Origin: Candidatus Komeilibacteria bacterium
Lineage (GTDB): Bacteria > Patescibacteriota > Patescibacteriia > UBA1558 > UBA10009
Assembly: GCA_026396575.1 (NCBI GenBank)
Contig: JAPLWM010000020.1
Location: 14,266-78,265 of the forward strand
Reading direction: 5' to 3'
Length of the DNA stretch: 64,000 nucleotides
Each line of letters starts with the position of its first letter. Position 1 is the stretch's first letter. Below the pieces are notes generated by a model. That model did no database searches, had not been told where the DNA came from, and was given only the letters and a program-made list of their open reading frames with translations. The translations under genes and the position numbers were made by a program. This document shows, one piece after another, positions 1-26,308 of this stretch.

Positions 1-207
1 TGCACTAAATTTTTTGTATCAACCGGCGCGCCGCCTCCGGACTCTCCAACTTTCCAAGGTGCTGTTTGAATTACTACTCGTCTATAATGTGCCATGCCTC
101 TCACAAAAAACCTCTTCACCTCATCAAGTACCTTTTGCGGATTGCGAGCCAGTGCCGTCTGAAATTCTTTTAACCCAACAATTTCTACCGCTTGCTCGGC
201 CATATAG

Positions 208-528
208 TTAAACGCTTAAATAATCCTCGTGCCTTTCAATGATCAATTGCAAATGCTGGTTCGTGCCGTAATCTCTTTTATTAATCGCCTTAACTCCGTA
301 ATCAAATTCCCCATCGCTTATCAAATCCCCCTCTTCAACATCCGTGCCCAGCGGGCACCACAGCGTAAACGCCCGGGTAAAATTCAATCGTAAAGTTTCG
401 GCCAGCTCGGCCGCTGCCTGTTGCAAGTAGCCGTCGAAAGTGCTTTGCGTAATTAAGGCAGAACTTTCCCCGGACCAAGACATTCTCTTGGTTGTGAATT
501 GCGTTGTAAAAAACTTTGCGATTGTCAT
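208..528 (-). CDS. hypothetical phage protein (structural-module neighbour)
   Basis: 106 aa ORF in the co-directional phage gene string; no motif recognised. Confidence 0.35.
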   Translation of the reverse strand: MTIAKFFTTQFTTKRMSWSGESSALITQSTFDGYLQQAAAELAETLRLNFTRAFTLWCPLGTDVEEGDLISDGEFDYGVKAINKRDYGTNQHLQLIIERHEDYLSV

Positions 529-531
529 TGT

Positions 532-1146
532 TTAAATTTCAAATTTTTTATAACTTTCTAAAATTTGCTTAGCCCTGGCAAAGTCCTGCCAGTTGGCATC
601 ATTGGCATAAGACACTGAATACTCACCAATCCTTTCTGATTGCACATTCCTAGAAGTTACCAGCTGGCCAAGGTTGCAACATAGGCCGGCCACAATAACC
701 GTAACAGCGAACTTAATATCATCAGGAACAACTGTGCTGTAGCCCCACTTGGCAGTGATTCTTGCGTTTTGGAGCCCTTTAAGCCAATAACCCGATAAAA
801 GGTGCAACTTTCTAATTGGTACCCCCAGGGAAGCGTAATTATTAGGCAAAGCAAGATACCGGCCTGATCCGGCAGCCAACACCTCGGTAAAACTATCACC
901 GCACTCATCATTACCCGCCTCAACCTTAGTAATGGCCACACAATCATCAATTAATAAATCCGTCCGGCCGTTGCCGTCAAACACGCGCGCGCTCGTGGCC
1001 GAATCAGCAACAAAGTTTCTACCGGTCAGCTGATCGATAAATTTTTCAATCGAGGCAATCCAATTCTCAACCTGCTCTTGATAGCTGGCTTCAATAGTTA
1101 AAAGCAAATAATTTTCAATTGCCAAAATGCTCGAATATCCTTTCAT
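532..1146 (-). CDS. putative head-tail connector (gp6-like) protein
   Basis: N-terminus LAIENYLLLTIEASYQEQVENWIASIEKFIDQLTGR resembles phage gp6-like head-tail connector N-termini; 204 aa. Confidence 0.4.
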   Translation of the reverse strand: MKGYSSILAIENYLLLTIEASYQEQVENWIASIEKFIDQLTGRNFVADSATSARVFDGNGRTDLLIDDCVAITKVEAGNDECGDSFTEVLAAGSGRYLALPNNYASLGVPIRKLHLLSGYWLKGLQNARITAKWGYSTVVPDDIKFAVTVIVAGLCCNLGQLVTSRNVQSERIGEYSVSYANDANWQDFARAKQILESYKKFEI

Positions 1147-1154
1147 AAAATTTA

Positions 1155-1664
1155 TTAATTATCTTGAATATCTAAAATTAATGACTCTTTAACCGGTTGC
1201 ATTGCCATTCCCTTTACCTCAAGCTTTTCTCTAATCTTAACCGGTAACTGCTCCATATTTTCCTGAGTCAAATCGACGTTAAGTTTCTTGGCCAAAGATA
1301 GCAGGCCGTCATTTGCTCGCTTATAATTCATTCTCAAAACCTGTCCGCCCTGGATGCATTGCTCCGACACGCCGAAATCAGCGTAGTCCTTAATTTTTCC
1401 GCAATTGCTTTCGCAAACATCGATTACCGGCCTGCATCCGTTAGCAATGGCTGTCTGAATATAATTCTCAATTTCGGTGTCGGAAACATTAAGCGTCTGA
1501 TAACCGGCAATCACTCCAGCTATGCCCAAAGCGGCCGCGCCAATGATATTTATAATCTTGGCGTCGATTTTAGGTTTAAGTTCCGGTTGGATTTGTTCAA
1601 CCGGCGCTTGCTCTTCTATGGGCGCTTCTACCGGTTGCTCTTCCTGTTGTATTTCATCGGGCAT
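1155..1664 (-). CDS. phage membrane protein with acidic Pro/Glu-rich N-terminus
   Basis: 169 aa; single hydrophobic helix IINIIGAAALGIAGVIAGY; no catalytic motif. Confidence 0.35.
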   Translation of the reverse strand: MPDEIQQEEQPVEAPIEEQAPVEQIQPELKPKIDAKIINIIGAAALGIAGVIAGYQTLNVSDTEIENYIQTAIANGCRPVIDVCESNCGKIKDYADFGVSEQCIQGGQVLRMNYKRANDGLLSLAKKLNVDLTQENMEQLPVKIREKLEVKGMAMQPVKESLILDIQDN

Positions 1665-1738
1665 AATGATTGAATAAAAATAGTAAATAAATAATTAATG
1701 GCAAAGCCATGCTTAAAACGATTATCGGTCCAAAATTG

Positions 1739-2614
1739 TCAGGTTTGAAATTCATAATCCGTTAATGTTTTAATAAGCGAGCTATTTTGAATTTTCTTAA
1801 TTCCATGTCTAAATTCCGTACTAACAAAGCTTGAAAGATTTTCTTTACTCTTGGCTTTTAATTTTAACTTTTTGCCGATTTCTAAATTATTCAATTCCTT
1901 GCCGTCCTCCAATCCAAACCTAAATTTTATAATATCTCGCTCCCTGTCTTTTAAAGTTTTTAAAACATTGCCGATATGCTTTTGTAATAATTCAAGCGAA
2001 ATTTTTAACTCAGCGATATCTATCCTATTATCAACAATCGTATCTCCCAGGGTCATCGTATCCCTATCCTTACCCTCTATAGGAGCGTCAATGCTTTCGA
2101 TAGTGAAGTTTAAATAGTCGAGCGCTGGTTTTAAGGCATGCTTAGTCCAGCCAAGCAATGTGCCAATTTTTTTAACCACCTCTTCAACCTCGGGCATCCG
2201 GCCTAGCTCCTGCATCAATCGTTCTTCGGCTTTCCTATAACGGCCAATAACCATCCCTACTTCCTTGGGTAATTTAATGATATGACTTTTTTCATAGACG
2301 TACCCAATGACATAATTGTTGATATAGCTAATTGCGCTGTGAAAGAATTTGCCTTTTGCAGGGTCATGCTTATCTACTGCCTTCATTAATCCGATTAAAC
2401 CCTCTTGCAATAAATCCTCTTCAGGGGCAAAGGGGGTCCATTTTTGTACTTTATTAACGACCAAACCAAACCAATACAAAACTATTTTTTCCCTAATGTC
2501 TTGGTTTTTTGTCTGGCGGTATTCATCAATCCAGGACTCTTCAAATTTTTTTAAACCAAGCTCTTTTATTCGGGCATTGATTATTTTATAATACTCTTTG
2601 TTTGTTTCGTACAT
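1739..2614 (-). CDS. sigma-70 family RNA polymerase sigma factor (phage-encoded)
   Basis: Region 2 motif LLQEGLIGLMKAVDKHDPAKGKFFHSAISYINNYVIGYV and region 4 HTH ERDIIKFRFGLEDGKELNNLEIGKKLKL; 291 aa. Confidence 0.75.
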   Translation of the reverse strand: MYETNKEYYKIINARIKELGLKKFEESWIDEYRQTKNQDIREKIVLYWFGLVVNKVQKWTPFAPEEDLLQEGLIGLMKAVDKHDPAKGKFFHSAISYINNYVIGYVYEKSHIIKLPKEVGMVIGRYRKAEERLMQELGRMPEVEEVVKKIGTLLGWTKHALKPALDYLNFTIESIDAPIEGKDRDTMTLGDTIVDNRIDIAELKISLELLQKHIGNVLKTLKDRERDIIKFRFGLEDGKELNNLEIGKKLKLKAKSKENLSSFVSTEFRHGIKKIQNSSLIKTLTDYEFQT

Positions 2615-2615
2615 A

Positions 2616-4067
2616 TTAATCTAATTTTTTCCAGTCAGTGCCGTCGCACCCCCAGAAATGCTTATTATTCGGATTATAGAAAAACGAACCCTCAACATCG
2701 GCCGCGCAAGTGGTGGTGGAAGTTTGGGTCGTTCGTGAAATACCTTTAACGTTAAACTGGATTTTATCCGTTATTAATACCGGCGTGTCGGTGGCCACCC
2801 TAAGCAAACCCTGAATAGTGCTGGTGCCGTAAGTTTCCATTGAATCGTCTATAACCACTACCCCAAGATTGGCCGCCCTTAAAGTTAAATCAGCATTGGC
2901 ATAGGGGCTATAAGTTTCAATGTAAAAAGGATTTTCAGCCTTAATATAGCTGGCCGTTTCATTGGATAAAATTAAATTGCCGGCCATACCAACGTCGCCA
3001 CTTTGGGCGATTTGCAGTGGCACATTGGAAACAACCTGCACATCGCTGATAGTAAGGGCCGTAGTGTCTCTAACCTGCAGATTAAACGCAGGAACAGTGC
3101 CTGTGGCCAAAAATATGGCCGTTCCTGACGCGTTAACGGTCGTTGACCAGTAATTGCTGGAATTATATGAAAGACGCAATTGTTCCGTGGTTCCTTGCAC
3201 CTGAAGATAGGCCGATGGGCTGCTTAAACCAATGCCGGTTTTACCTCCGTCCAAAATGGTAAATACTTTAGTGTTGCCGTCATAGGCATTAAATAAATCT
3301 CCTGCACCTCCCTGCCTAACTGTTAAAATAGCTGATGTACCAGTGGCGCTGATAGTAGAAGTGGCAAAATTTCCTCTTGCTGCAAAATTAATATCGCCGC
3401 CACTTGGAGTGATGTTTAAATCGCCATTTGCGTCAGTTAAGAAATATGTTTGATGCGAGGCATCATAGGCCATTTTTAATTGCGCTGTAGTGCTTAAAAC
3501 TTCCAGCTTGGCCTGTGGATTAGTTGTGCCAATACCGACATTGCCGGTAGTAGGGTTTAAAATAATACTGGTGTTTCCCTGGCTGGCCTGATCAACCGTT
3601 AAAGCGCCGGTTGAATTGAAAATCTTTTGGTGAGCGTCAGTCGTACCGGTTGTTTTTAAGTTGCCGTTAACAGTAAAATCACCGCTGGAAACAATGGTAA
3701 AAAATGCTTTGCCGTCAACTTTAAGATTGCCGTTAATGTGCAAATTACCCTGAATGGTTGAAGTGGCTGTGGTAGAGGCCGCGTTAAACGAACCTAAATT
3801 TAAGTTATTAATATCCTGCCAGGCCGGGATGCCGTTATTAACCTGTAAAAATTGGCCGGTAGTGCCAATAGGCAATGTCTTTAAAAGAGTCGGGGCAGTA
3901 GATGAACCGTACAAAATATCGCCACGGTTATAATTCGTGATGCCGGTGCCGCCTCTGTTAGGAAAAACAATGGCCTGAGCGGAAACTGTGCCGGCTAAAC
4001 TTAGTCCGGCTAATATAGAAATGATGGCAAAGATTTTTTTCATAAAATTAAATTCTATAATCCGCAA
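2616..4067 (-). CDS. secreted tail-fiber-like beta-rich repeat protein
   Basis: Sec signal peptide MKKIFAIISILAGLSLAGTVSAQA; recurrent GNVGIGTTNP / TGIGLSSP fiber-like repeats; Cys-containing C-terminal knob; overlaps next tail fiber gene by 20 nt. Confidence 0.5.
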   Translation of the reverse strand: MRIIEFNFMKKIFAIISILAGLSLAGTVSAQAIVFPNRGGTGITNYNRGDILYGSSTAPTLLKTLPIGTTGQFLQVNNGIPAWQDINNLNLGSFNAASTTATSTIQGNLHINGNLKVDGKAFFTIVSSGDFTVNGNLKTTGTTDAHQKIFNSTGALTVDQASQGNTSIILNPTTGNVGIGTTNPQAKLEVLSTTAQLKMAYDASHQTYFLTDANGDLNITPSGGDINFAARGNFATSTISATGTSAILTVRQGGAGDLFNAYDGNTKVFTILDGGKTGIGLSSPSAYLQVQGTTEQLRLSYNSSNYWSTTVNASGTAIFLATGTVPAFNLQVRDTTALTISDVQVVSNVPLQIAQSGDVGMAGNLILSNETASYIKAENPFYIETYSPYANADLTLRAANLGVVVIDDSMETYGTSTIQGLLRVATDTPVLITDKIQFNVKGISRTTQTSTTTCAADVEGSFFYNPNNKHFWGCDGTDWKKLD

Positions 4068-4677
4068 TTACCGCGCTCATAGGCGGGGTGATAAATGTTA
4101 TTGTCGCCGTGCCTAAAGTAAAATCAACATTAGGCGTCATCCTTAATCCATCAGCCCAAACTTTAAGCGAACCGGCCGCTGGCGTATCCGGCAAGACAAA
4201 AATCGTGTTAATTCCATTGATTGCTCCGGTCGGAACAACATTGTCTTTGATTTTACTCAAGGTCTGATGCGGGTCATTATAATCAGTTAAATGCCCGGAC
4301 AAATCTTCAGCATTAGCCTTCGCATTTAATAATTCATCGGTTTCCCCGGATGTGTAGGCCCCTGTTTGGGCAGCTGTGACTGCGTGTGGATTATCATGAT
4401 CACCCTCATGATTGGTTAAATCCTCTGAATTAGCTTTAGCGCTTAATAATTCATCATCCTCGCCCTTAGTGTAAGCGCCAACCTGTCCGGCTGTTACCTG
4501 ATGCGGATTATCAGTGTCGCCAATATGATCGTCGGCCTTATCATTAACCTCCTTAAGTAAATTTGCTTTGGTTTGCTTTTTAGTTTCGTTGGCCGAAACA
4601 TCAACCACCACAACAAGGTCATTGTCTTCACTAGTGGTTATCGGGTCTAATTCTGAAATTTTTTTATTGGCGCTCAT
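4048..4677 (-). CDS. phage tail fiber protein with DNPH-type fiber repeats
   Basis: Two tandem repeats DNPHQVTAGQVGAYTKGEDDELLSAKANSEDL / DNPHAVTAAQTGAYTSGETDELLNAKANAEDL typical of the phage tail fibre repeat family. Confidence 0.6.
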   Translation of the reverse strand: MSANKKISELDPITTSEDNDLVVVVDVSANETKKQTKANLLKEVNDKADDHIGDTDNPHQVTAGQVGAYTKGEDDELLSAKANSEDLTNHEGDHDNPHAVTAAQTGAYTSGETDELLNAKANAEDLSGHLTDYNDPHQTLSKIKDNVVPTGAINGINTIFVLPDTPAAGSLKVWADGLRMTPNVDFTLGTATITFITPPMSAVIADYRI

Positions 4678-5007: not shown

Positions 5008-6363
5008 TTAAGCAGAAGCTTCAGCGGTCTTAAGGACAGTGATTGGTTTATTCAAAGTGGTAATCAATTGAACGTAACCAACTCTTTCAATAAGACGGAT
5101 GGCTTTGCGGTCAGTGGTAATCAGGTTCAGATCAGCGTTGGCGGCAACATTTCTAACCACGCCAGCGTCAAATCTCTCGGCCCTGATAGCGCCCTGGTAG
5201 CCGAATAAGGCACCGGCTTTCAAATCACCAAAGATGACGAAAGCGGTATCTTCGGCACTGTCGCCAGAGGTAGGCATAACCTCAACTTCCACAACCGGCT
5301 TGCCCCAAATGCTGGCAGGTCCAGTTTCGGAAGGACGTTGGAAGATATAATCTCCCTCTGCCTTTAATTTCCTAACCAAAGCCATGATGGAGAAGTGCAT
5401 GAAGTACTTACCCCTTGCCCTGGCAGCTGCCGGAGTGTCGATCTGCATATCCAGCAAATCGTCGGCATCAATGGAAGCAAAAGTGGTTCCAGCCATTACG
5501 GTTTCATTCACATTGGCGCTAAGGAGCAAACCAGTGAAGCTGCCGTAATCTGAAGTGCCGTCGCCATTAAAGACAAAATCGTCTTCAGCGCGAGCAAACT
5601 TTTCAGCTGCCCTTTCTGCAACCAAGCTGAACAAATCGATTTCCTGTTCTTCCAAAAGTTCGCTGGTCAGAGTTACAATCACGCCCAATTTCTTAAGGCT
5701 TAATGAATTCTGATCAAGAACCAACTGGCTGGAGGAAATAACCGCGCCCTCATCAACCCAATAAACGGTCAAATCAGTGACCAATTCATTGGCTTTATAG
5801 GTGTGCTTGGTTAATTGCAGGGAGGTTAGTTCGCGTCTGGCCACACCGTAGTCAGTCATCAAGTGACGAACTTCAGCGGACAATTCGCTATCAACCACGT
5901 AACCGGCGTAAGGAGTGCCCTGCGCATCAGTGGTCATTTCCTTAAATTTGGCTTCATCACCGGTAATAAGGGCCTTGGCCAAAGCTCTAATATGCTCATT
6001 AAAGCCTTTTCTTTTGGCCGCAATATCGGGCTGATAAACGCCGGCCTTTTTGGCCATTAAATCCTTGTGCTCTTCCAACCATTCCTTGACTTTCACTTCA
6101 AGATTGGTTTGGATGCCCTGGGCTTCCTTTCTCAGCAAATTGCTAAGCAATTCAGCGGTTTTTTCCTCAGAGGGTTCACCGCCGCCAGCGCCAGCAAGAG
6201 GATCAACCTCAGGCAATTTTTCGGCCTGCTCGGTTTCTTCCTTAACTGGTTCCTGCTCTTCCTGCTTCAATTTGGAAAATTCAGCCTTCAGGGCTTCCTT
6301 TTCCGCTTTGGTGGCAAAGCCTTTTTTTAAAAGGGCTTTTAACATTTTTAAGTAAATCAGCAT
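5008..6363 (-). CDS. HK97-family major capsid protein with N-terminal coiled-coil (delta or scaffold-like) extension
   Basis: C-terminal region (GKPVVEVEVMPTSGDSAEDTAFVIFGDLKAGALFGYQGAIRAERFD...) resembles HK97-fold capsids; N-terminal about 120 aa is K/E-rich coiled coil; sits between protease and tail fiber genes. Confidence 0.7.
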   Translation of the reverse strand: MLIYLKMLKALLKKGFATKAEKEALKAEFSKLKQEEQEPVKEETEQAEKLPEVDPLAGAGGGEPSEEKTAELLSNLLRKEAQGIQTNLEVKVKEWLEEHKDLMAKKAGVYQPDIAAKRKGFNEHIRALAKALITGDEAKFKEMTTDAQGTPYAGYVVDSELSAEVRHLMTDYGVARRELTSLQLTKHTYKANELVTDLTVYWVDEGAVISSSQLVLDQNSLSLKKLGVIVTLTSELLEEQEIDLFSLVAERAAEKFARAEDDFVFNGDGTSDYGSFTGLLLSANVNETVMAGTTFASIDADDLLDMQIDTPAAARARGKYFMHFSIMALVRKLKAEGDYIFQRPSETGPASIWGKPVVEVEVMPTSGDSAEDTAFVIFGDLKAGALFGYQGAIRAERFDAGVVRNVAANADLNLITTDRKAIRLIERVGYVQLITTLNKPITVLKTAEASA

Positions 6364-6367
6364 AGAA

Positions 6368-7318
6368 CTAAACTTTTAATTTTAATAACTTCCTAATGGC
6401 CTGATTAATTGTGCGATTAGTCGCGATCTTCGTTGCTGTTGCAGGGTCTTCCCCTGTTACAGTTACGGCACCTATTACATCTATCGCCTTGTTAATTCTG
6501 GCCAAAGCTCCACAACGCTTCTCAATAATCAGATTCGCTGCGGAGTTGATTGTTTTTAATGGATTGCTTTTTACCGGTTCAGCTGTTCCTGTTGGGCTAT
6601 TTTCGCCTCCCTGATTTGTTGGCTGTTGATCGCCAGGCTGGCCATTGTTTTGCTCTCCTCCGTTTTGCTCGCCTGCATCATTATTATTTTTCCCGCCCGC
6701 TTCACCACCGTCGCCGTTTCCGGGAGCTGGCGGTTCATCACCTTCCGGATTCTCTGGATCTTCATTACCTTTTGATTTATCATAATTTTTTTCAAATAAG
6801 GCCTCTGGATTTGCCGGCACTGGAACGGCCGATATTTCCAAAAGCTCGCTTTTAACAATTGACATTCCGTCGTCGCTGAACTCTTTGGGAATAAAGCCGA
6901 CGGACAGCGTATTTAAAAGTCCAGCCAGGCGCAATTTGTAAGCCAACATGCCTTTAGGGCTTTCCAAAGCAAAATAAACATCTCCTTGCAATTTATCATC
7001 CTTAACTTTAATGTTTTTAATCCCGCCGATGATATGTTCAATAGAATCGTAATTGTGGCTGTCTAAAAGAACGGGATTATTTTTATAACTTTTCAAATCC
7101 CAGTTTTGCTCCACAACATCGCCGTGCCTGTCTTCCGCGGCCGTTGAAAAAATAGCGTGGAAAAGATTATCCACCCCCTCGGCTTTTTGGAAAATGGTAA
7201 AAACAGGCAAAGTAAAACCCTCAAAACCTTTTTCCTGGATTTTATCCCAGAGGTCCTTGTAAGTTTTAACTTTTAATTCGGAAAACGACTTAGTTGAGAG
7301 TTGATAGAATTTTCGCAT
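6368..7318 (-). CDS. HK97-family prohead protease fused to a G/N/Q-rich low-complexity C-terminal region
   Basis: FSTAAEDRHGDVV ... LLDSHNY motif block typical of Caudovirales prohead serine proteases; gene order portal-protease-capsid. Confidence 0.7.
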   Translation of the reverse strand: MRKFYQLSTKSFSELKVKTYKDLWDKIQEKGFEGFTLPVFTIFQKAEGVDNLFHAIFSTAAEDRHGDVVEQNWDLKSYKNNPVLLDSHNYDSIEHIIGGIKNIKVKDDKLQGDVYFALESPKGMLAYKLRLAGLLNTLSVGFIPKEFSDDGMSIVKSELLEISAVPVPANPEALFEKNYDKSKGNEDPENPEGDEPPAPGNGDGGEAGGKNNNDAGEQNGGEQNNGQPGDQQPTNQGGENSPTGTAEPVKSNPLKTINSAANLIIEKRCGALARINKAIDVIGAVTVTGEDPATATKIATNRTINQAIRKLLKLKV

Positions 7319-9312: not shown

Positions 9313-9346
9313 AAAAAAAACTGCCACCAATAGCAATTACGAATAA

Positions 9347-15001: not shown

Positions 15002-15072
15002 ATGAACGATGCCATTTAAAAAATAAAACCATTTCTCGCCTGGCCAAAAGTCATCCGCTTTTAAAATAATTC

Positions 15073-16588: not shown

Positions 16589-16745
16589 AGATTACTTTTT
16601 TATTATTTCTTTTAACTCATCCCAAAATTTAGTAAATTGGTGACTATACTCCCAGGGCTTGATCATTTGGATTAAAAATATCACCAAGATTAAAACCACT
16701 CGTTCCCTTAAATTAAGATAGTCTTTTTCCATTGTTTTAAATGCC

Positions 16746-16961: not shown

Positions 16962-17511
16962 ATTTTTCCCTCACTAATTTATTATTTTCCGCGTTATAGC
17001 AGGAGTAATCCCTGCGGTTAACTGGCGTGCGCCAGTCGCCATATTTAAGCGTCAGGTACTCCTCGATGTTCCGTGGCCGGTTAAATAAAGCACCGTGAAA
17101 CTCAATCAGCTCCAGCTCCTCGTAAAAATGAGCCGGGATAACAACGAACTTGTCAATGTTGAAAGTGCCAGGCCGGTAAAGATATGTGTAAGCTTCTTTG
17201 CCATTTTTTTTGTTAAAAAATAAATCTATTTTATAGCCGTCGCGCTTAAAAGCGATTTCCAATTCCCAGCGTCTTTTAACTTCAAAACCTTTTTCAGCGG
17301 CCCGTGCAATCAGCTCGTCAGCCAAAACCATCCAATTGTCCCAGCAACAAAGGTCTACATCATCTTCATCATTGGCGCAAAAGTTATGATCCCGATAAGC
17401 GCCCAGCAAAGTACCGCCATCAAGCCAAAAAACAATCCCGAGCCGGTCAAGAATGTTTTTAAAATCAAGCAGATTTTTTTTAGCGATTTGCTGGCTTGTA
17501 TTTAATTCCAT
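16948..17511 (-). CDS. LicD-family (fukutin-like) phosphotransferase
   Basis: IVFWLDGGTLLGAYRDHNFCANDEDDVDLC: canonical LicD GTLLGAxR plus DxD motifs; 187 aa. Confidence 0.65.
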   Translation of the reverse strand: MELNTSQQIAKKNLLDFKNILDRLGIVFWLDGGTLLGAYRDHNFCANDEDDVDLCCWDNWMVLADELIARAAEKGFEVKRRWELEIAFKRDGYKIDLFFNKKNGKEAYTYLYRPGTFNIDKFVVIPAHFYEELELIEFHGALFNRPRNIEEYLTLKYGDWRTPVNRRDYSCYNAENNKLVREKYDIQ

Positions 17512-17514: not shown

Positions 17515-17862
17515 TTAATTTTCTTTAATAAATTTAATCGCCTCATCTGCGCCTTTACAAACGACCGCCTTAATGCCAGGACAACTCCCCAACGCCTCAA
17601 TCCAGCTTTTCTGAAATTCACTTACTACTCCGCCTTTAACCCGTTTCATTTCAATAAACAACAATCGATTGGCGGGAGAGATAACAATCAAGTCCGGAAG
17701 CCCGGGCCGGAGGCCAAGAGCTTTGTTTCGCATCTTAACCGCCCAGCTCCGGGTAAAGGTTGAATTTGGAATGGCCGTAAATTTTAAGTGCCTCAACTCC
17801 AGATATTCAACCAAAGCTTTTTGCTCGTCGTCTTCCGAACGGATGTAATTATTTTTTTGCAT
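17515..17862 (-). CDS. VRR-NUC domain nuclease
   Basis: PD-(D/E)xK-like PGLPDLIVI...FIEMK block; 115 aa, typical size for phage VRR-NUC. Confidence 0.55.
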   Translation of the reverse strand: MQKNNYIRSEDDEQKALVEYLELRHLKFTAIPNSTFTRSWAVKMRNKALGLRPGLPDLIVISPANRLLFIEMKRVKGGVVSEFQKSWIEALGSCPGIKAVVCKGADEAIKFIKEN

Positions 17863-19432: not shown

Positions 19433-19507
19433 TGGTGTCGGGGGCAGGAATCGAACCTGCGACCTCCTGGTTATGAGCCAAGTGAGCTGCCACTGCTCTA
19501 CCCCGAG
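19433..19507 (-). tRNA. tRNA with CAT anticodon (Met); initiator-like features
   Basis: Cloverleaf folded by hand from the reverse complement: 7 bp acceptor stem, D arm GAGC/GCUC, anticodon loop CUCAUAA, T loop TTCGATT, 3' CCA encoded. Positions 1:72 are C:C (unpaired) and 11:24 are A:U, both initiator hallmarks; only 2 of the 3 G-C pairs expected in an initiator anticodon stem are present. Confidence 0.8.
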
Positions 19508-19786: not shown

Positions 19787-20449
19787 TTAAAATGGGCATT
19801 TCCAATACTCCAAAGTATATTTTAAATCCTCGCTCAAATCAGCTTGTTTGCTTAACCACTCCAAATAACCGATATCTTTTACCGTAACTTCCTCGAACGT
19901 TTGCTTTTTGTATTTCCCGAATGGCAACCGGCGCATTAGAACCGGATGCTGGCTGATTGTTAACATTTCCTCAACGCTGATTTTTTCTTTTAAGAGATTA
20001 AACAAAGCCCTTAAAACTTCCACATCGCCGTCAGCGCTGTGTGCATCGCCGGCAACGTCCAGCTTAAAATAATAACGCAGGTACTGAAGTTTATACTGTG
20101 GTAAATCGTAAAGGTGCTGGGCAACTTTTAAGGTGTCAATGACCCGCGAATGATCAACCTTAAGCCCCTCATTTTCCAAAATCTTAACGTCAAAGGCGGC
20201 GTTATGGGCAACTAAAATAGATTCGTCTATTGCGCCCTGGACAAACGGTCTATTAACAGAAAACGGCAAACATTCTGCTATGTGCTCATTTGTGATGCCA
20301 TGAACCGACATCGCCTCAACTGAAATCTCAACCGGCGGTTTATAATTTTGGCAAGTCGGTATATCGTTATTTTTTGCGTAAGCCAGTTGCACCAGCCGCG
20401 CGTCATCGTCCTTGCCGGTCGTCTCGGTGTCTAAAAATAGTAATTCCAT
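19787..20449 (-). CDS. DnaQ-like 3'-5' exonuclease (DEDDh family)
   Basis: Exo I FLDTETTG, Exo II VAHNAAFD, Exo III H...D block; 220 aa. Confidence 0.7.
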   Translation of the reverse strand: MELLFLDTETTGKDDDARLVQLAYAKNNDIPTCQNYKPPVEISVEAMSVHGITNEHIAECLPFSVNRPFVQGAIDESILVAHNAAFDVKILENEGLKVDHSRVIDTLKVAQHLYDLPQYKLQYLRYYFKLDVAGDAHSADGDVEVLRALFNLLKEKISVEEMLTISQHPVLMRRLPFGKYKKQTFEEVTVKDIGYLEWLSKQADLSEDLKYTLEYWKCPF

Positions 20450-21198: not shown

Positions 21199-21624
21199 TT
21201 AATCTTTTAATGCATTTTGCCAGTCGCCAAATATATCGCTTAAAACTTCCGGATAAAAATTAGGGATAAAATAAACCTCGTCATTGAACGCAACCGGCCG
21301 TGTCAGCTCTAAGTACAAAGGATTTTTTACATACTGCCGGTCAGCAAAGCCGATTGTTATTTTTATATCGCCTTTAGAATAACGCCCAAGCGCCTCCTCC
21401 TTAAACTGAAACTCATCGATTAAATCATAAAGCAATTGGCTTTCAAATTGCGGTTTGTAATAATCCCACGTTATCAACTCAATTGATTCGCTGATCAATT
21501 TTTGGTCGCGGCCAATACCCAATAAAGTCCGGCCCCAAAGAATCATGGGAACATTTAACCTTTTAAAAACATCCCCGATATTTTCCAACGCGTTAATGGC
21601 TAAAGCTTCTTGATGGCTGTCCAT
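21199..21624 (-). CDS. LicD-like nucleotidyltransferase-fold protein lacking the DxD motif (possibly inactive paralogue)
   Basis: MILWGRTLLGIGRDQKLI mirrors the LicD GTLLGAxR block of the 16948-17511 gene; no DxD follows. Confidence 0.35.
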   Translation of the reverse strand: MDSHQEALAINALENIGDVFKRLNVPMILWGRTLLGIGRDQKLISESIELITWDYYKPQFESQLLYDLIDEFQFKEEALGRYSKGDIKITIGFADRQYVKNPLYLELTRPVAFNDEVYFIPNFYPEVLSDIFGDWQNALKD

Positions 21625-22138
21625 AGATTTTGTTTACCGGCATAATTTTAATGCCGAAATTAAATAATTTTACCTGTCCGTTATCCGGCGCAACCGGATC
21701 CAAATAATCAATCATCCTCGACTGCTCGCCAGCCCACATCGGCACGTCGCCTTTTAACAACTCTCTAAGCGTTACTAAACACCTCTCGGCCTCAAAATAA
21801 CCCTCCTGGTGCCCGGTAACCTTAGAAATGATGGCGTACTGCGGAATTGCCTTACCGTGCAGGAATTGGCCAGCTTTTCGTGTTAAGCAATAATAGCCGG
21901 GCTTGCCATCGATGTAGGCAATTAAACCGTGAAATCTTGGTCTTGATAAATTAGTCAGAAACCATTTTTTATTTCCACTGCAATCCATTTCACGCGCCGG
22001 GTGGATTTCATTTTTTCCCTTAGCTGAAATCGCATTAAGCATCGCCAAAACAATTTTCACAGTGCCTTTATCAAGGCCTAATAAATAATTTTCAGATTGG
22101 CCACAGCGTTCACAAGTTGTAGGTTTGAAACCAAGCAT
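21593..22138 (-). CDS. hypothetical phage protein with N-terminal CxxC
   Basis: 181 aa; TCERCGQSE at the N-terminus. Confidence 0.35.
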   Translation of the reverse strand: MLGFKPTTCERCGQSENYLLGLDKGTVKIVLAMLNAISAKGKNEIHPAREMDCSGNKKWFLTNLSRPRFHGLIAYIDGKPGYYCLTRKAGQFLHGKAIPQYAIISKVTGHQEGYFEAERCLVTLRELLKGDVPMWAGEQSRMIDYLDPVAPDNGQVKLFNFGIKIMPVNKIYGQPSRSFSH

Positions 22139-22153
22139 AGGTGCATCAAACTT

Positions 22154-22390
22154 TTAATCTTTAAAACAATTTGGATCAGCCCGAAAATGTGAATAAGATT
22201 CAAGGTCTTCAACATCGCGCAACATCCGTCTTATCCAGGCAAGGACAAAATAATCACACCCTTTTTTTGAGCATTTTTCACCTAAAATTTTCATTGTTTT
22301 CGCATCTCGGATGTGAATCGTTTCGGGGAATTTGCACTTTGGGCAATCTGCATCATGAACAGTTTGAATAATTTTAATTTTTTTAGTCAT
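22154..22390 (-). CDS. small zinc-ribbon protein
   Basis: 78 aa; CPKC ... C..GC pattern. Confidence 0.35.
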   Translation of the reverse strand: MTKKIKIIQTVHDADCPKCKFPETIHIRDAKTMKILGEKCSKKGCDYFVLAWIRRMLRDVEDLESYSHFRADPNCFKD

Positions 22391-22394
22391 AAAT

Positions 22395-22607
22395 TTATTT
22401 GATTAATTTTAGATATTTTTCTTTATTCGGACAGGCTGAATCATTTAAGCCATGATGATGGTGTCCACATTGCTCAGTATGAACACATTGAGCACAGCGA
22501 TTATTAATCCAACAAAATATCACACCATGCTGACTGCAATGATTATGGACAGGATCTCTTGTTACCCTATCAACCATTTGCTTCGGCGTTTCATTTCCAA
22601 TAATCAT
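22395..22607 (-). CDS. small Cys/His-rich protein
   Basis: 70 aa; HNHCSQH..C...CAQCVHTEQCGHHHH. Confidence 0.35.
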   Translation of the reverse strand: MIIGNETPKQMVDRVTRDPVHNHCSQHGVIFCWINNRCAQCVHTEQCGHHHHGLNDSACPNKEKYLKLIK

Positions 22608-22693
22608 TTTTTTATTTACTTAACTCAACCTCGCGCAACATCCGCCTTAGCCATGCCTTGCGCCAGTGTTTTAGCCAGATTTTTTTGATTAGA

Positions 22694-23143
22694 TTAAACA
22701 TTTTTTATGCTTTTATAATACCTATTGCTGACAGCTTGTTCCGTCACGCCAAATTCATCAGCTATTTTTCTGATACTCATTCCAGAATCTTTTAACGACT
22801 TAATTCTTTTATCATCCTCGTCGGTCCAGCGTCTTTTAGAGCCTTTGATTTTACTAACCTTAACTTCCGGTTCGTCCATTTCTTCACAATGGATTGAATT
22901 ACAGCTTGGGCAGGTGGCATCCCACTTTTTCAGATTAGATTTAAACTCTTTATTGCACTCCTGGCATTTGTAATTAATGGCGCTGCTTAAAGTTTCTTCT
23001 ACCTCGGCCTTTTTGTATTTTCGCTTTCCGTTTTTTTTGCCCTTTTTATAACCGTAAACTTTTTTAGCCGGTGGTTTTATCGGCTCAATTTCTTCCCTTA
23101 CCGGTTCAACTGGCTTTAAATTTTCTACCCCCCCCCCGACCAT
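22694..23143 (-). CDS. zinc-ribbon plus C-terminal HTH DNA-binding regulator
   Basis: CQEC...CPSC zinc ribbon; C-terminal RRWTDEDDKRIKSLKDSGMSIRKIADEFGVTEQAVSNRYYK (sigma-r4/GcrA-like HTH); start codon sits directly on a G10 tract. Confidence 0.55.
   Translation of the reverse strand: MVGGGVENLKPVEPVREEIEPIKPPAKKVYGYKKGKKNGKRKYKKAEVEETLSSAINYKCQECNKEFKSNLKKWDATCPSCNSIHCEEMDEPEVKVSKIKGSKRRWTDEDDKRIKSLKDSGMSIRKIADEFGVTEQAVSNRYYKSIKNV
23128..23137. repeat. homopolymeric C10 (G10 on the coding strand) tract at the 5' end of the regulator CDS
   Basis: Direct read: ...ctaccccccccccgacc...; it encodes the GGG of the MVGGGV N-terminus. Confidence 0.9.
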
Positions 23144-23209: not shown

Positions 23210-23728
23210 TTAATTATTTAATAACCCTGCCGATTTTGAGCAGGCCCACAGATAAGCCTGGCCGGCTTTTAATTTATTAATTGTCCACGTGGCGCTCTCC
23301 TCAACGTCCATGGCGATTTTAGCCGTGCCTGGCCAAAACTCCTGATTGATTTGGAATAGACCTAAGCTTGAACCTCCATCACCCACAGCTTTCGGGTCAA
23401 ACCTGCTTTCGCACCAGGCCAGCCTGAGCAATTTTTCAGCGTCAAAGTTTTCCTGTTTGGCCACCAGCCTGATTCGGTCCCAAACAGTCAGTTCGTTCAG
23501 ATTGATTATTTCCGGCATCGCTTCCTGCGCTGCCACTTTTTGCGCCAGGCCGATGTTATAGCGCCTGCCTAATTCTCTTAACCCGAGCGAGGTAAAGAAA
23601 ATAATTAATATGGCCAAAATAATTAATCCAACAGTCAATCCCGAGCTTAATCTCTTCCTGCGCCACTCTTGATTTTTAGGTGTGATAATTGGCATACTCC
23701 AATTAGTCCAATAATTTTGTTGTTGCAT
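23210..23728 (-). CDS. membrane-anchored lytic transglycosylase (SLT-domain lysozyme)
   Basis: N-terminal TM; WCESRFDPKAVG...GLFQIN SLT catalytic block. Confidence 0.7.
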   Translation of the reverse strand: MQQQNYWTNWSMPIITPKNQEWRRKRLSSGLTVGLIILAILIIFFTSLGLRELGRRYNIGLAQKVAAQEAMPEIINLNELTVWDRIRLVAKQENFDAEKLLRLAWCESRFDPKAVGDGGSSLGLFQINQEFWPGTAKIAMDVEESATWTINKLKAGQAYLWACSKSAGLLNN

Positions 23729-24287: not shown

Positions 24288-24310
24288 ACCGGCTGGGTTT
24301 ATAATTTTAA

Positions 24311-24727
24311 TTAGAATGGGATGTCTTCAGTGTTGATTTCTTCTTCAACATTGATCACCGGCAAATCTTCTTCCTTTTGCATCCTTTCCTTAGCGGTTTC
24401 AGCCGGCTTGCTTCCCAACAGTTCGAATTCTTTAACGATAATCTCGGTGCGGTAATTAGTCCTGCCGTCATCATCTTTCCAGCTCCTGGTTTGAATTTTG
24501 CCCTCTACAAGCAACTGACTTCCCTTTTTAGCATATTTAGCCACAACATCGGCTTGGACTCCCCAAAAGACCAAACTGTGAAAATCAACCCTTTCTTTTT
24601 TCTCGCCAGTGCCGTCTTTCCAAATTTCATTCGTGGCCAAGCTGACTGTGCCAACCGTTTTGCCCGAGCCGGTTTTTTTCAATTCAACGTCTCGAACTAA
24701 CCGGCCCATTAAAGTAACTTTATTCAT
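24311..24727 (-). CDS. ssb: single-stranded DNA-binding protein
   Basis: OB-fold N-terminus MNKVTLMGRLVRDVELKKT...; acidic C-terminal tail ending DIPF. Confidence 0.8.
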   Translation of the reverse strand: MNKVTLMGRLVRDVELKKTGSGKTVGTVSLATNEIWKDGTGEKKERVDFHSLVFWGVQADVVAKYAKKGSQLLVEGKIQTRSWKDDDGRTNYRTEIIVKEFELLGSKPAETAKERMQKEEDLPVINVEEEINTEDIPF

Positions 24728-24732
24728 ATGAC

Positions 24733-25915
24733 TTATTTTTTAAGGACTTGGATTAAGTGATCGGCCTCGGCCACAGTTAATTCGTCTAATTTGGTAATTC
24801 CCTCTATTCCGTACATGAAACCAAGGAAACTAACTTGCCTTACTGGATCGCTGGTTTCGGCGGCTATTTCAAGCAACGACTTAAGGGTTGCCAATCTCAT
24901 CGGGCCAGCTTTCGGATCAGTAGCCCTGTTGACGACTGGCATTTTCAATCCAGGCAATTTGTCGTCAACTACTTTGTCGGCCGGCTGTTCCGGAATTAAC
25001 GGCTCCGCTGAATTTTCAGCAGGCGCTTTAGGCGCTGGATCAGCTGGCTTAGCGGGCTGCTGATTTTTCAGCGCTGTGGCTATGGCCTGATAATTTTCCT
25101 CTTTCAATTCGATGCCGGTTAAATCCTTAACACTCTGCTTCGCTTCTTCGGCCGTCGCCCTCTTAGCGTTCAATCTTTTTAACTGGCTCATGATTTCGCC
25201 TTTAACGGCGACATAATCCAATGATCCATTTTCGTTCCATTGCTTAATCTTTTTGCCGGTCTCAACTGTGATGACAAAAGGATCCACGTCAATGAACATT
25301 GAAGTCCTATCTTTACTGGCCATCGCGAAGTGGCCGTCACGATCAATGTTGAAGTTGACCGTTAATTCGTACTCAAATCCTTCGCGCTGGATTTCTTTGG
25401 TTCCAACCTTTTTAATTTTTTTATCCTCGGTTTGGATGGTGTCGGTCTTGCTTCTTGCGGTCGTAATCATGTGAGCTGGGGAAGTGACTATCGCCTCGAT
25501 AAACTTCCGATGCTTTGGCGTAGTCGCCGACCAAGCGGCCCAGCTGTTACCCTTAAACTTGGTTTGGGCTAACAACTCGTTTGTTTCAAGACAACCACCC
25601 TTACCATCCCACTCATGGGAAACTGAATCTACAATGATAACTTCCATGCCGGCATCCTCACACGCTTTAATTGCCTCGATGTATCTTTCCGGAGCAAATG
25701 GCGCGCTCAAAGTGATGACGTTGTACTCGCCGAGATTGCTGTATAATTCGCCCGACCCATTCTCGGTATCGATTAAAGCGATTTTTTCCCAATCGCTGGT
25801 AATGCCGTAAGCCAGCAATAAAGCGCTGTAGGTTTTACCGGCGCCTGATGGAGCCGATATACCAATCCTTAACTTCGCTTGCTTACGTTCTGCTCTCCTA
25901 ATCTGCATCGTCATA
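24733..25915 (-). CDS. RecA-fold ATPase (Sak4/AAA_24-like recombination protein) with a C-terminal extension
   Basis: Walker A LRIGISAPSGAGKTYSA, Walker B VIIVDSV; the ORF track extends to a GTG at 26025, and the ATG at 25915 is the more plausible start. Confidence 0.55.
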
Positions 25916-26056
25916 ATTTTCGTGGTTAATTGTTTTTCCCTTAGTCCGCCTGTGGCAATCCCAGCACTCGGGATATTTTTCGCTTTTATGATTTCCGCAC
26001 GCGCAGAGATCCGAGCCATGGGCACAACTAAGACAATTTATATTTTTACATTTCAT
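25898..26056 (-). CDS. possible 52 aa Cys/His-rich small protein overlapping the 5' region of the ATPase gene
   Basis: MKCKNINCLSCAHGSDLCACGNHKSEKYPECWDCHRRTKGKTINHENYDDAD read by hand in an alternative frame; not in the ORF track because it is under 60 aa. Confidence 0.2.
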   Translation of the reverse strand: MKCKNINCLSCAHGSDLCACGNHKSEKYPECWDCHRRTKGKTINHENYDDAD

Positions 26057-26065
26057 TTTAAAGTG

Positions 26066-26248
26066 CTATAATTTAATTAAGTTCTGCTCGTTAGTGTCGC
26101 CGGTTGGCGGCATTGACGAGTTTTTTATTTGTCCGGTTAGGCCGGATACCTCGACCTTGGGCGAGTTGGCATAAGTTGTCCACAGGTCGTAGGAACCCGG
26201 GCCAGAGCTTATGTCCACCTCGCCTAAGGTAGTTATCCCCTTAGACAA
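26066..26248 (-). CDS. small hypothetical protein (60 aa), last ORF of the phage-like block
   Basis: ORF only. Confidence 0.2.
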   Translation of the reverse strand: MSKGITTLGEVDISSGPGSYDLWTTYANSPKVEVSGLTGQIKNSSMPPTGDTNEQNLIKL

Positions 26249-26252
26249 ACAA

Positions 26253-26276
26253 AAAATCCTACTTTCGTAGGATTTT
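26253..26276 (-). terminator. rho-independent terminator of secA
   Basis: aaaatcctac-tttc-gtaggatttt perfect 10 bp hairpin; on the minus strand it is followed by UUUUUUGUUUG, 33 nt after the secA stop. Confidence 0.6.
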
Positions 26277-26308
26277 GAAATTCTGTTGATTTTGCTAAGG
26301 TTTATGCC

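What the first reader, a model, noticed from the sequence alone, without database searches (positions are those of the whole stretch)
1..26290. About 26 kb phage/prophage-like block, single-strand, minimal HK97 head module; no integrase seen
All ORFs from the window start to 26,248 are on the minus strand. They include TerL, portal-MuF, prohead protease, HK97-like capsid, two tail-fiber genes, a connector-like gene, lysozyme, SSB, a Sak4-like ATPase, a DnaQ-like exonuclease, VRR-NUC, two ParB-N proteins and many small Cys-rich ORFs. The block ends exactly at the secA terminator hairpin (26253-26276). No integrase, tape-measure or tail-tube gene is visible. The left end is outside the window, so the integrase and the remaining tail genes may lie there. 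If the host is a CPR-like organism, this would be a fairly complete temperate phage for a lineage with few described phages.
Basis: partly seen in the sequence, partly recalled or inferred. Interest (0 to 1): 0.55.

Follow-up and report, generated by a model that had tools for sequence, protein, structure and literature searches.

The report
Intact temperate phage inserted in secA
The block is the right-hand two thirds of a complete, probably still active 39-kb tailed prophage inserted in the last codons of the secA gene of a Candidatus Komeilibacteria (CPR/Patescibacteria) genome; it is a well-resolved example of a kind of element already reported from CPR bacteria.

Summary
Window 1-26,335 is a minus-strand phage block. 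HMM searches confirm TerL, portal-MuF, S78 protease, HK97 capsid, head-tail adaptor, a fibre-repeat protein, SLT lysin, SSB, a Sak4-like AAA_24 ATPase, an RNase T-type exonuclease, VRR-NUC and ParB.

Public contigs 100% identical to the window extend it about 14 kb to the left. Next comes a displaced copy of the secA 3' end (GSAKKFKKCHGK*) and a host-type gene.

The prophage measures 38,965 bp between two copies of an 8-bp core, AAATTTAA. It sits inside secA's last codons, and the phage arm supplies the last six codons, the stop codon and the "secA terminator".

In three metagenome samples, six contig ends fall on the exact bases predicted if attP (two samples) or an empty attB (one sample) coexists with the integrated form. 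That suggests excision or replication and non-lysogenic hosts.

The host is a Candidatus Komeilibacteria MAG. CPR prophages are already published, so this is a new member of a known kind.

The parts
26328..26335 (.). att core AAATTTAA at the secA-proximal junction. The second copy lies about 12.6 kb left of the window, at L013 9600-9607.
   Evidence: the two copies are 38,965 bp apart and flanked by single-base differences; contig ends fall on the bases predicted from this core.
26309..26327 (-). Phage-supplied replacement of the secA 3' end: G of the second AAG (K) codon that follows TTT, then K, C, H, G, K, stop. The SecA protein sequence is unchanged.
   Evidence: the displaced copy at L013 9588-9626 encodes GSAKKFKKCHGK*, differing only by synonymous changes and the stop codon over the last nine codons. 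Base-by-base reading.
26253..26276 (-). Hairpin followed by a T-run. It terminates secA transcription, and its two arms carry the GTAGGAT motif (possible integrase-binding sites in the P' arm).
   Evidence: 10-pair stem. GTAGGAT occurs only three times in the 44-kb composite, all in the reconstructed attP arms.
26026..26252 (.). Rest of the P' arm and early control region. The 60-aa ORF 26066-26248 is doubtful. The region holds a 16-pair hairpin (26086-26121, + strand) and a promoter-like site (26045-26072, + strand).
   Evidence: No domain evidence supports the ORF.
24733..26025 (-). Sak4-like RecA-family ATPase (AAA_24).
   Evidence: PF13479, 7e-20.
24311..24727 (-). Single-stranded DNA-binding protein.
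   Evidence: PF00436 on the identical product.
23210..23728 (-). Membrane-anchored SLT lytic transglycosylase.
   Evidence: PF01464, 1.7e-7.
21593..23143 (-). Small Cys-rich / zinc-ribbon and HTH proteins of the early region.
   Evidence: Translations. Zn_ribbon and HTH hits for 22694-23143.
19787..20449 (-). DnaQ/RNase T-type 3'-5' exonuclease with an ExoX-like C-terminus.
   Evidence: PF00929 2e-15, PF20600 1.6e-7.
19433..19507 (-). Phage-borne tRNA-Met (anticodon CAT).
   Evidence: ARAGORN; Rfam RF00005, 62 bits.
17849..19270 (-). ParB-family protein (ParB_N plus HTH_ParB).
   Evidence: (TIGR00180, 3e-41).
17515..17862 (-). VRR-NUC nuclease.
   Evidence: PF08774, 1e-10.
12849..17511 (-). 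Glycan / polyol-phosphate module:
- LicD-family transferase, 16948-17511.
- IspD/TarI-like cytidylyltransferase fused to an SDR reductase, 15365-16588.
- DUF4406 protein, 15073-15393.
- Conserved 194-aa protein, 14417-15001.
- Tandem GT2 glycosyltransferase, 12849-14420.
   Evidence: Conserved at the same position in related phages L115, L127 and L128.
12196..12426 (-). 76-aa ORF that looks like a truncated remnant of a larger ParB_N-methyltransferase gene.
   Evidence: 58-60% identical to part of the larger genes at the same position in L115 and L127. The gene there carries N6_N4_Mtase in L115 and ParB_N plus N6_N4_Mtase in L128. No Pfam hit of its own.
11504..12070 (-). Candidate small terminase subunit, assigned by position only.
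   Evidence: It overlaps the TerL start. Homologues precede TerL in L116 and L126. No family hit.
10003..11532 (-). Large terminase subunit.
   Evidence: phrog_2, 5e-14.
7336..9336 (-). Portal protein fused to a MuF-like head-morphogenesis domain.
   Evidence: the NCBI record names it 'phage portal protein'.
6368..7318 (-). Prohead serine protease (S78).
   Evidence: PF04586.
5008..6363 (-). HK97-type major capsid protein.
   Evidence: PF05065, 2e-42.
1155..4677 (-). Variable insertion between capsid and adaptor:
- Fibre-repeat protein, 4048-4677.
- 483-aa protein with a signal-peptide-like N-terminus, 2616-4067.
- Sigma-70 family factor, 1739-2614.
- 169-aa protein with a central hydrophobic stretch, 1155-1664.
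   Evidence: sigma: RpoD-type, 1e-28. Absent from relative L115, where capsid abuts adaptor. Contig breaks at 4763/4783 and 1711.
532..1146 (-). Head-tail adaptor.
   Evidence: phrog_442, 3e-17.
208..528 (-). Conserved 106-aa head-tail joining protein.
   Evidence: 40-57% homologues at the same position in four relatives (L115, L116, L126, L127).
1..203 (-). 5' part of the Neck1 / tail-completion gene. It continues beyond the window.
   Evidence: the full 135-aa product on L001 hits phrog_5 at 1.4e-10.

Best explanation
Window 1-26,335 is the right-hand 26.3 kb of a complete 38,965-bp temperate, siphovirus-like (HK97-type) prophage of a Candidatus Komeilibacteria bacterium. The other 12.6 kb lies beyond the window's left edge.

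The phage's own Xer-like tyrosine integrase recombined an attP with the last codons of the host secA gene. Strand exchange took place within an 8-bp core, AAATTTAA.

The attP arm mimics the secA 3' end. After insertion it supplies the last six codons, a stop codon and a terminator hairpin. SecA therefore stays intact and its transcription stops before the phage early genes. The original secA end is left as a 12-codon remnant at the far junction, next to the integrase and a small HTH (excisionase-like) gene.

Module order along the minus strand is:
1. Recombination and replication genes.
2. Glycan-modification genes.
3. Packaging and head genes.
4. An inserted sigma-factor / surface-protein cassette.
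5. Connector, tail and lysis genes.
6. Two reverse-strand membrane genes.
7. Integrase.

Shown: the gene content, both junctions and the secA duplication. Inferred: that the integrase acts on this core, that the element still excises, and what the cargo genes do.
For: Gene content:
- Phage hallmark genes by HMM.

Junctions and extension:
- Contigs from independent runs are 100% identical to the window. They span the secA-phage junction (L005-L008, four runs) and the integrase-flank junction (L013, L014, L118-L120, five runs).
- The extension carries tail tube, tape measure, baseplate hub, holin, integrase (PF00589 4e-25; XerA/C/D-like 3e-40) and a 56-aa HTH protein.
- L013 9588-9626 encodes GSAKKFKKCHGK*, against GSGKKFKKCHGK* at the secA C-terminus. 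DNA identity is 25/29, with an identical 8-bp block flanked by mismatches.

Contig ends (with k=31):
- ERR15302196: L010 starts at 26335 and L017 ends at L013 9607. ERR15302206: L121 starts at L013 9578. Both are as predicted if attP coexists with the integrated form.
- ERR15302223: L011 starts at 26357, L015 ends at L013 9629 and L122 starts at L013 9600. This is as predicted if an empty attB coexists.

Host context:
- Upstream synteny murB-prs-secA is seen in the closest genome L019, and murB lies upstream of secA in many other Patescibacteria genomes.
- The left-flank 287-aa protein has a paralogue elsewhere in the same MAG and a homologue in another Patescibacteria MAG.
- GC is 41.6% against 46.1% in the host part.

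Size:
Against: - No read-level data. attP and attB are inferred from contig termini, not seen as spanning sequences.
- No repressor or clear lysogeny switch was identified.
- The integrase is Xer-like and scores below every curated family cut-off.
- The putative excisionase has only weak HTH hits.
- I could not extend beyond L013 11122, so the left flank rests on two genes of unknown function.
- One contig start (L009, 26345) does not fit the simple four-junction model.
- No related genome with an unoccupied secA site and the same downstream genes was found.
Confidence: 0.88

Rival explanations
1. A cryptic or defective prophage remnant that is fixed in the chromosome and can no longer excise or form particles.
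For: No repressor/anti-repressor switch was recognised. The ParB_N-methyltransferase gene seems reduced to a 76-aa remnant. Many samples give contigs that run straight through both junctions.
Against: All essential modules are present with full-length ORFs: packaging, head, connector, tail, lysis and integrase. Six contig termini in three samples fall on the exact bases expected for attP or attB forms.
Confidence: 0.07
2. An assembly or binning artefact: a free phage genome wrongly joined to a Komeilibacteria contig.
For: MAGs from short reads can contain chimeric joins. The Logan contigs break inside secA (27460) and at the phage edges.
Against: The same two junctions were assembled independently, at 100% identity, in at least four and five different runs. 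A secA 3'-end remnant sits at the far junction exactly as site-specific integration predicts.
Confidence: 0.02
3. The 300-aa recombinase is the host's own Xer recombinase, and the element lacks an integrase. It would then be an IMEX-like element, or its true left end would lie between the holin and the recombinase.
For: The best family matches are XerA/XerC/XerD. Two reverse-strand membrane genes separate it from the lysis genes.
Against: The secA remnant and the core lie distal to the recombinase and the HTH gene. Contig L017 runs from tail genes through the recombinase and stops exactly at the core, which fits an attP junction. No att-like repeat was found between holin and recombinase.
Confidence: 0.04

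Closest known systems
Prophages reported in Patescibacteria/CPR genomes: Paceibacteria prophages of about 44 kb (PMC12455944), Absconditicoccaceae prophages with predicted att sites (bioRxiv 10.1101/2024.03.08.584096) and groundwater Patescibacteriota phages with O-antigen sugar AMGs (PMC12911398).
   Same: A tailed temperate phage of about 40 kb integrated in a CPR genome, with glycan-related auxiliary genes.
   Different: - The host lineage is Komeilibacteria.
- It uses the standard genetic code.
- The att site is resolved to 8 bp inside secA.
- No detectable close sequence relative in IMG/VR, and only distant ones in deposited phage genomes (portal 25% or less).
Lambdoid phage 21 and element e14, which integrate into the 3' end of icd in E. 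coli (from my own knowledge, not tested here).
   Same: A tyrosine-integrase element inserts in the 3' end of an essential or housekeeping protein gene. It carries a substitute 3' end, so the protein stays functional and a displaced gene fragment is left at the far junction.
   Different: - The target is secA rather than icd.
- The substitute is only six codons and encodes an identical peptide.
- The integrase is Xer-like, with a SAM-like N-domain.
Uncultured phage clade defined by portal-MuF fusion proteins, with more than 100 metagenomic homologues at 37-50% identity on 33-42 kb contigs. The nearest is L115 (Logan SRR13007708).
   Same: Collinear TerL, portal-MuF, protease, HK97 capsid, adaptor, Neck1 and Phage_tube_2 tube. 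A tandem GT2 gene lies upstream of the terminase in four of the six genomes compared (the window plus five relatives).
   Different: - Amino-acid identity is only 40-60%.
- L115 has a different TerL type.
- L115 lacks the sigma-factor cassette.
- The hosts and integration sites of the relatives are unknown.
Bcs1-type bifunctional CDP-ribitol synthase with TarI/TarJ, plus LicD-family phosphotransferases of teichoic-acid and capsule pathways (from my own knowledge).
   Same: An N-terminal IspD/TarI-like cytidylyltransferase fused to a C-terminal SDR reductase, encoded next to a LicD-family protein and glycosyltransferases.
   Different: - The substrate was not tested.
- Scores are below the equivalog cut-offs.
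- The genes are encoded by a phage.

Membership tests
Integrated temperate tailed phage (Caudoviricetes, HK97-type head, non-contractile tail) | HK97-fold major capsid protein, portal, large terminase and prohead protease. | tested here: met
   PF05065 2e-42, PF04860 4e-43, phrog_2 5e-14, PF04586 1e-5.
Integrated temperate tailed phage (Caudoviricetes, HK97-type head, non-contractile tail) | Tail tube and tape-measure protein present, and no sheath. | tested here: met
   on the extension L001: PF18906 tube and phrog_991 tape measure (489 aa). No sheath hit among the genes between Neck1 and the tape measure.
Integrated temperate tailed phage (Caudoviricetes, HK97-type head, non-contractile tail) | Integrase gene next to one end. 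| tested here: met
   L013 8336-9238, PF00589 4e-25, ending 361 bp before the att core.
Integrated temperate tailed phage (Caudoviricetes, HK97-type head, non-contractile tail) | Direct repeats (attL/attR) at both ends, and host genes on both sides. | tested here: met
   AAATTTAA cores 38,965 bp apart inside a 25/29-nt repeat. secA, prs and mur genes lie on the right. NTZ18_03565, which has a paralogue in the same MAG, lies on the left. The left flank is only 1.5 kb long.
Integrated temperate tailed phage (Caudoviricetes, HK97-type head, non-contractile tail) | Ability to excise, replicate and form particles. | tested here: inconclusive
   contig termini fit attP in two samples and attB in one. 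There are no spanning reads, no coverage data and no culture.
Integration into the 3' end of a protein-coding gene with restoration of the gene (phage 21/e14-icd type) | The target gene's reading frame is preserved by phage-borne sequence, and a displaced 3' fragment lies at the distal junction. | tested here: met
   secA ends ...GSGKKFKKCHGK* across the junction. The remnant GSAKKFKKCHGK* is at L013 9588-9626.
Integration into the 3' end of a protein-coding gene with restoration of the gene (phage 21/e14-icd type) | An unoccupied attB of the predicted sequence exists in non-lysogens. | tested here: inconclusive
   three termini in ERR15302223 fit this. No attB-spanning contig could be retrieved. 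Related genomes have different downstream genes.
Tyrosine recombinase (phage integrase family) | Catalytic domain carrying the R...HxxR...Y residues. | tested here: met
   PF00589 over residues 121-287. Read from the sequence: DTGARNGE, HSFRHHMGH, STIYT. Residue roles are inferred from motif position only.
XerC/XerD/XerA chromosome-dimer resolvases | Score above the curated equivalog cut-off. | tested here: not met
   138.5 bits against a cut-off of 220 (XerA), and 123 bits against about 330 (XerC/D).
Bcs1/TarIJ-type CDP-ribitol synthase | Cytidylyltransferase plus reductase domains, and ribitol-5-phosphate specificity. | tested here: inconclusive
   both domains are present (IspD 1.5e-26, adh_short 1.4e-18), with a hit to D-ribitol-5-P cytidylyltransferase NF001183 at 9e-18, below its cut-off. 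Substrate specificity cannot be tested with these tools.

The most novel reading that the evidence does not exclude
The polyol-phosphate glycan module (CDP-alditol synthase, LicD transferase and tandem GT2), conserved in a subclade of these phages, may be a lysogenic-conversion system. It would remodel the cell-surface glycopolymer of the CPR host, changing phage receptors or the cell's attachment to its partner organism. Alternatively it may glycosylate the virion. Separately, the near-invariant secA 3' end may be a recurrent integration hot spot in CPR genomes: a second secA-end duplication brackets a 1.3-kb island in L110/L111.
Probability: 0.3. Interest if true: 0.6.

Novelty: new member of a known kind. 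Interest (0 to 1): 0.4.

Why it matters
Few phages of CPR/Patescibacteria bacteria are described beyond bulk predictions. This one is complete and linked to its host by integration. Its att sites are defined to the base, and there are hints that it is active in natural samples.

That gives a concrete integrase/attP/attB set for a lineage without genetic tools. The target sequence, the secA zinc-finger codons, is almost invariant across bacteria.

It also gives a candidate phage-borne surface-glycan module and sigma factor, whose effects on an episymbiotic host could be tested.

Tried and rejected
- An att repeat within the first 10 kb of extension (L001): none found, because the end lies further left.
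- Exact look-up of the SecA protein to obtain empty-site contigs: not on record.
- A scan of GTDB representative genomes with SecA, to find an unoccupied site in a close relative. The best match was only 64% identical. Upstream murB (and prs in L019) was found, but there were no homologues of the downstream 204- and 287-aa genes and no related prophage.
- IMG/VR scans with capsid peptide patterns and with the att pattern: nothing.
- PDB sequence searches for TerL, the 372-aa lysis-region protein P0001 and the 483-aa protein: nothing informative.
- Literature search for secA as a phage attB: the hits were unrelated, namely a eukaryotic-like secA in phage WO and secA2 in pneumococcus.
- The internal tRNA-Met as the integration site: rejected, because phage genes continue on both sides and the att lies in secA.
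- A plasmid-prophage reading based on ParB: rejected, because both chromosomal junctions are documented and no ParA is present.

Full report
**1. The observation**

The long ORFs that tile window 1-26,248 without gaps are all on the minus strand. Compared with the rest of the window, the block has lower GC (41.6% over the whole prophage against 46.1%). Its GC skew is also strongly negative, -0.13 to -0.19 against about 0.

- HK97-type capsid (5008-6363, PF05065 2e-42), S78 prohead protease, and portal fused to MuF (7336-9336, PF04860 4e-43 and PF04233 1.5e-15).
- VRR-NUC.
- ParB, an RNase T/ExoX-type exonuclease, an SLT lytic transglycosylase and a Sak4-like AAA_24 ATPase.
- SSB (PF00436).

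TerL (10003-11532) has no Pfam terminase hit. It matches phrog_2 'terminase large subunit' at 5e-14 and annotated terminases in deposited phages. It also has 39-55% homologues in the same position in related phages.

The adaptor (532-1146, phrog_442 3e-17) and one fibre-repeat protein (4048-4677, phrog_8147 5e-17) are supported. The second 'fibre' (2616-4067) is only weakly fibre-like (E 0.007), and its translation starts with a signal-peptide-like segment.

The small second ParB-N (12196-12426) has no Pfam hit of its own. It is 58-60% identical to part of the larger genes at the same position in L115 and L127. That gene carries N6_N4_Mtase in L115 and ParB_N plus N6_N4_Mtase in L128. It therefore looks like a truncated remnant.

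The hairpin at 26276-26253 is real.

**2. Host and context**

To the right of 26,309 lie secA, prs, murB/C/G-ftsW-murD-mraY, a type IV pilus cluster, dnaX and hrcA-grpE-dnaK-dnaJ. I named these from the translations.

Proteins from the element and its left flank are 100% identical to NCBI entries named 'Candidatus Komeilibacteria bacterium' (locus tags NTZ18_03565 and NTZ18_03600). Those entries sit on a 98,051-bp contig.

The nearest SecA proteins in GTDB representatives are Patescibacteria MAGs at 60-64% identity. murB lies upstream of secA in many of them, and prs too in the closest, L019.

**3. Extending the element**

Logan contigs from many runs are 100% identical to the window. L001 and L013 continue about 14 kb beyond the window's left edge.

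The extension encodes, in order:
- Neck1 / tail completion (phrog_5).
- A 330-aa tail tube (PF18906).
- Two paralogous chaperone-like genes.
- A 489-aa tape-measure protein (phrog_991).
- A 500-aa baseplate-hub-like protein (weak PF05954).
- Two small fibre-like or structural proteins.
- A 132-aa protein with a hydrophobic N-terminus.
- The 372-aa protein P0001, of unknown family.
- A holin.
- Two reverse-strand membrane proteins.
- A 300-aa tyrosine recombinase. It has PF00589 at 4e-25 and a SAM-like N-domain. Its best NCBIfam matches are XerA/XerC/XerD, all below cut-off.
- A 56-aa HTH protein.

No sheath gene was seen, so the tail is probably non-contractile.

**4. The attachment site**

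Just after the HTH gene, L013 9588-9626 reads GGG AGT GCT AAG AAA TTT AAA AAA TGC CAT GGA AAA TAA. This encodes GSAKKFKKCHGK*. The SecA C-terminus in the window is GSGKKFKKCHGK*.

At DNA level 25 of 29 bases match. The longest blocks of identity are AAATTTAA and TGCCATGG. The differences within the last nine codons are synonymous, apart from TAA against TAG.

This is the pattern expected when a phage integrates into the 3' end of a gene and brings a substitute end. The two AAATTTAA copies are 38,965 bp apart. That matches the 33-42 kb contigs carrying related portals.

Three consequences follow:
- The last six secA codons, the stop codon and the 'secA terminator' hairpin belong to the phage arm.
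- SecA is unchanged at protein level.
- The block's right boundary is 26,335, not 26,290.

In the reconstructed attP, the 7-mer GTAGGAT occurs three times around the core and nowhere else in the 44-kb composite. An 18-nt imperfect inverted repeat flanks the core, and so does CCATGGGA. I interpret these as possible integrase-binding sites. This is inference only.

**5. Signs of activity**

Logan contigs come from a k=31 de Bruijn graph. That figure is from my own knowledge of the resource and is an assumption here. On that basis a contig stops where a second sequence path joins or leaves.

If attP (P-core-P') coexists with the integrated junctions, three things are predicted:
- The phage-side contig ends at the last core base (L013 9607).
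- The P' contig starts at the first core base (26335).
- The contig specific to the host (B') side starts 30 nt before its first private base (L013 9578).

Observed: L017 ends at 9607 and L010 starts at 26335, both from ERR15302196. L121 starts at 9578, from ERR15302206.

If an empty attB coexists instead, the predictions are 26357 (26327+30), 9629 (9599+30) and 9600. Observed, all from ERR15302223: L011 starts at 26357, L015 ends at 9629 and L122 starts at 9600.

So six termini fall on exactly the predicted bases, consistently within each sample. Chance is an unlikely explanation. This is still indirect evidence, because no junction-spanning sequence was retrieved. One terminus (L009, 26345) is unexplained. 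It would fit an attB allele that shares 12 more bases with the phage arm.

Other runs give contigs that cross both junctions without a break. That documents the integrated state independently in at least four runs (right junction) and five runs (left junction).

**6. How it most likely works**

Integration. The Xer-like integrase exchanges strands within AAATTTAA, between attP and the terminal codons of secA. The phage arm restores secA and terminates its transcript. Excision would need the integrase, probably together with the adjacent HTH protein.

Early genes. The early region encodes single-strand annealing and recombination functions (Sak4-like ATPase, SSB, exonuclease, VRR-NUC), ParB, zinc-ribbon/HTH proteins and a tRNA-Met.

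Late genes. These follow the usual order from terminase to lysis. The strongest sigma-70 consensus promoters in the block lie just upstream of the portal gene.

Not found. No repressor was identified. The lysogeny switch is unknown.

**7. Cargo**

It contains:
- A LicD-family transferase.
- An IspD/TarI-like cytidylyltransferase fused to an SDR reductase, which is the Bcs1-type CDP-ribitol synthase architecture.
- A DUF4406 protein.
- A conserved 194-aa protein.
- A tandem GT2 glycosyltransferase.

This module is not a one-off. The nearest relative, L115 (portal 48%, capsid 59%), has LicD (50%), separate IspD and SDR genes, the 194-aa protein (39%) and the tandem GT2 (58%) at the same place. 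L127 has the GT2 (43%) plus a TagD-type cytidylyltransferase. L128 begins within the GT2 gene. L116 and L126 lack the module.

I infer a polyol-phosphate glycan function. It could modify the host surface (lysogenic conversion) or the virion. The tools cannot decide between these.

A second cargo segment (1155-4677) sits between capsid and adaptor and is absent from L115. It holds the fibre-repeat protein, the 483-aa protein with the signal-peptide-like start, a genuine sigma-70 family factor (RpoD-type 1e-28) and a 169-aa protein with a central hydrophobic stretch. Contig breaks at 4763/4783 and 1711 suggest it varies among co-occurring phage variants.

**8. Comparison with what is known**

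Deposited phages are only distantly related. The best portal match is Geobacillus phage GBK2 at 24.9%, and TerL matches are at most 38% over its C-terminal third. IMG/VR has no close relative. More than 100 metagenomic portal-MuF homologues at 37-50% identity define an uncultured clade.

Prophages of Patescibacteria are already reported:
- Paceibacteria prophages of about 44 kb with glycosyltransferase AMGs (PMC12455944).
- Absconditicoccaceae prophages with att sites (10.1101/2024.03.08.584096).
- Groundwater Patescibacteriota phages with O-antigen sugar AMGs (PMC12911398).

Integration into a gene's 3' end with a substitute end is classical (phage 21 and e14 in icd, from my own knowledge). 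I found no report of secA as a target in the library searched.

The secA terminal sequence is almost invariant at DNA level across distant bacteria. Another CPR-like contig, assembled in two metagenomes (L110 and L111), has a second secA-end copy bracketing a 1.3-kb island.

**9. Verdict**

The block is part of an intact, probably active, 39-kb temperate siphovirus-like phage of a Komeilibacteria host, integrated in the secA 3' end.

It is a new member of a known kind. Interest is moderate. The value lies in the base-level att definition, the evidence for attP and attB forms in natural samples, and the conserved glycan module.

Noticed in passing
L111 4200-4232 and 5509-5541 (the same sequence occurs in L110): A different CPR-like contig, assembled in two metagenomes, carries two copies of the secA 3' end 1.3 kb apart, with 18 nt identical. 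They bracket three small genes and no integrase. This looks like an independent insertion, or a remnant of one, at the same secA site.
   Followed up: partly
window 12849-17511; L115 1521-5991; L127 1-5381: The LicD / IspD-SDR / tandem-GT2 module is conserved at the same position in related phages. The GT2 is 58% identical in L115 and 43% in L127, and L127 has a TagD-type cytidylyltransferase instead. It is therefore typical of a subclade rather than a single acquisition.
   Followed up: partly
window 1155-4677: The segment between capsid and adaptor encodes a sigma-70 family factor, a 483-aa protein with a signal-peptide-like start and a fibre-repeat protein. It is absent from relative L115. 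Logan contigs break at 4763/4783 and at 1711, which suggests a variable cassette.
   Followed up: partly
window 4755-4795: A tandem direct repeat, ACAACGCCGTACGCCG x2 with a 5-nt spacer, lies downstream of the capsid gene. It coincides with the contig break at 4763/4783, so copy-number variation is possible.
   Followed up: no
window 19433-19507: A tRNA-Met (CAT) is encoded inside the phage. Position 1:72 looks unpaired (C.C) when read by eye. Its identity (initiator, elongator or Ile2) is not resolved.
   Followed up: no
window 9436-9555: The two best sigma-70 consensus promoters in the block (12/12 and 11/12 matches, minus strand) lie around a terminator-like hairpin (9504-9479), between TerL and the portal gene.
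   Followed up: no
window 26045-26121: A plus-strand promoter-like site (11/12, with TG) is followed by a 16-pair hairpin with a T-run, inside the doubtful 60-aa ORF. It could be a small antisense or regulatory transcript in the attP arm.
   Followed up: no
window 26253-26276 and L013 9562-9576: GTAGGAT occurs only three times in the 44-kb composite, all within about 75 bp of the att core in the reconstructed attP. Two copies form the 'secA terminator' stem. They may be integrase-binding sites.
   Followed up: partly
window 26345 (start of L009, ERR15302187): This contig start does not fit the simple attL/attR/attP/attB model. It would fit a secA allele that shares the sequence down to 26316 and differs at 26315.
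   Followed up: no
L001 7031-7366 and 8119-8460: Two paralogous 111- and 113-aa chaperone-like genes upstream of the tape measure are separated by reverse-strand small membrane genes, including one with a TM2 domain. This looks like a moron inserted within a gene duplication.
   Followed up: no
L013 11122: Every Logan contig from eight runs stops about 36 nt after the 287-aa flank gene. That gene has a 59% paralogue (NTZ18_00795) elsewhere in the same MAG. A repeat or variable point probably blocks assembly there.
   Followed up: no
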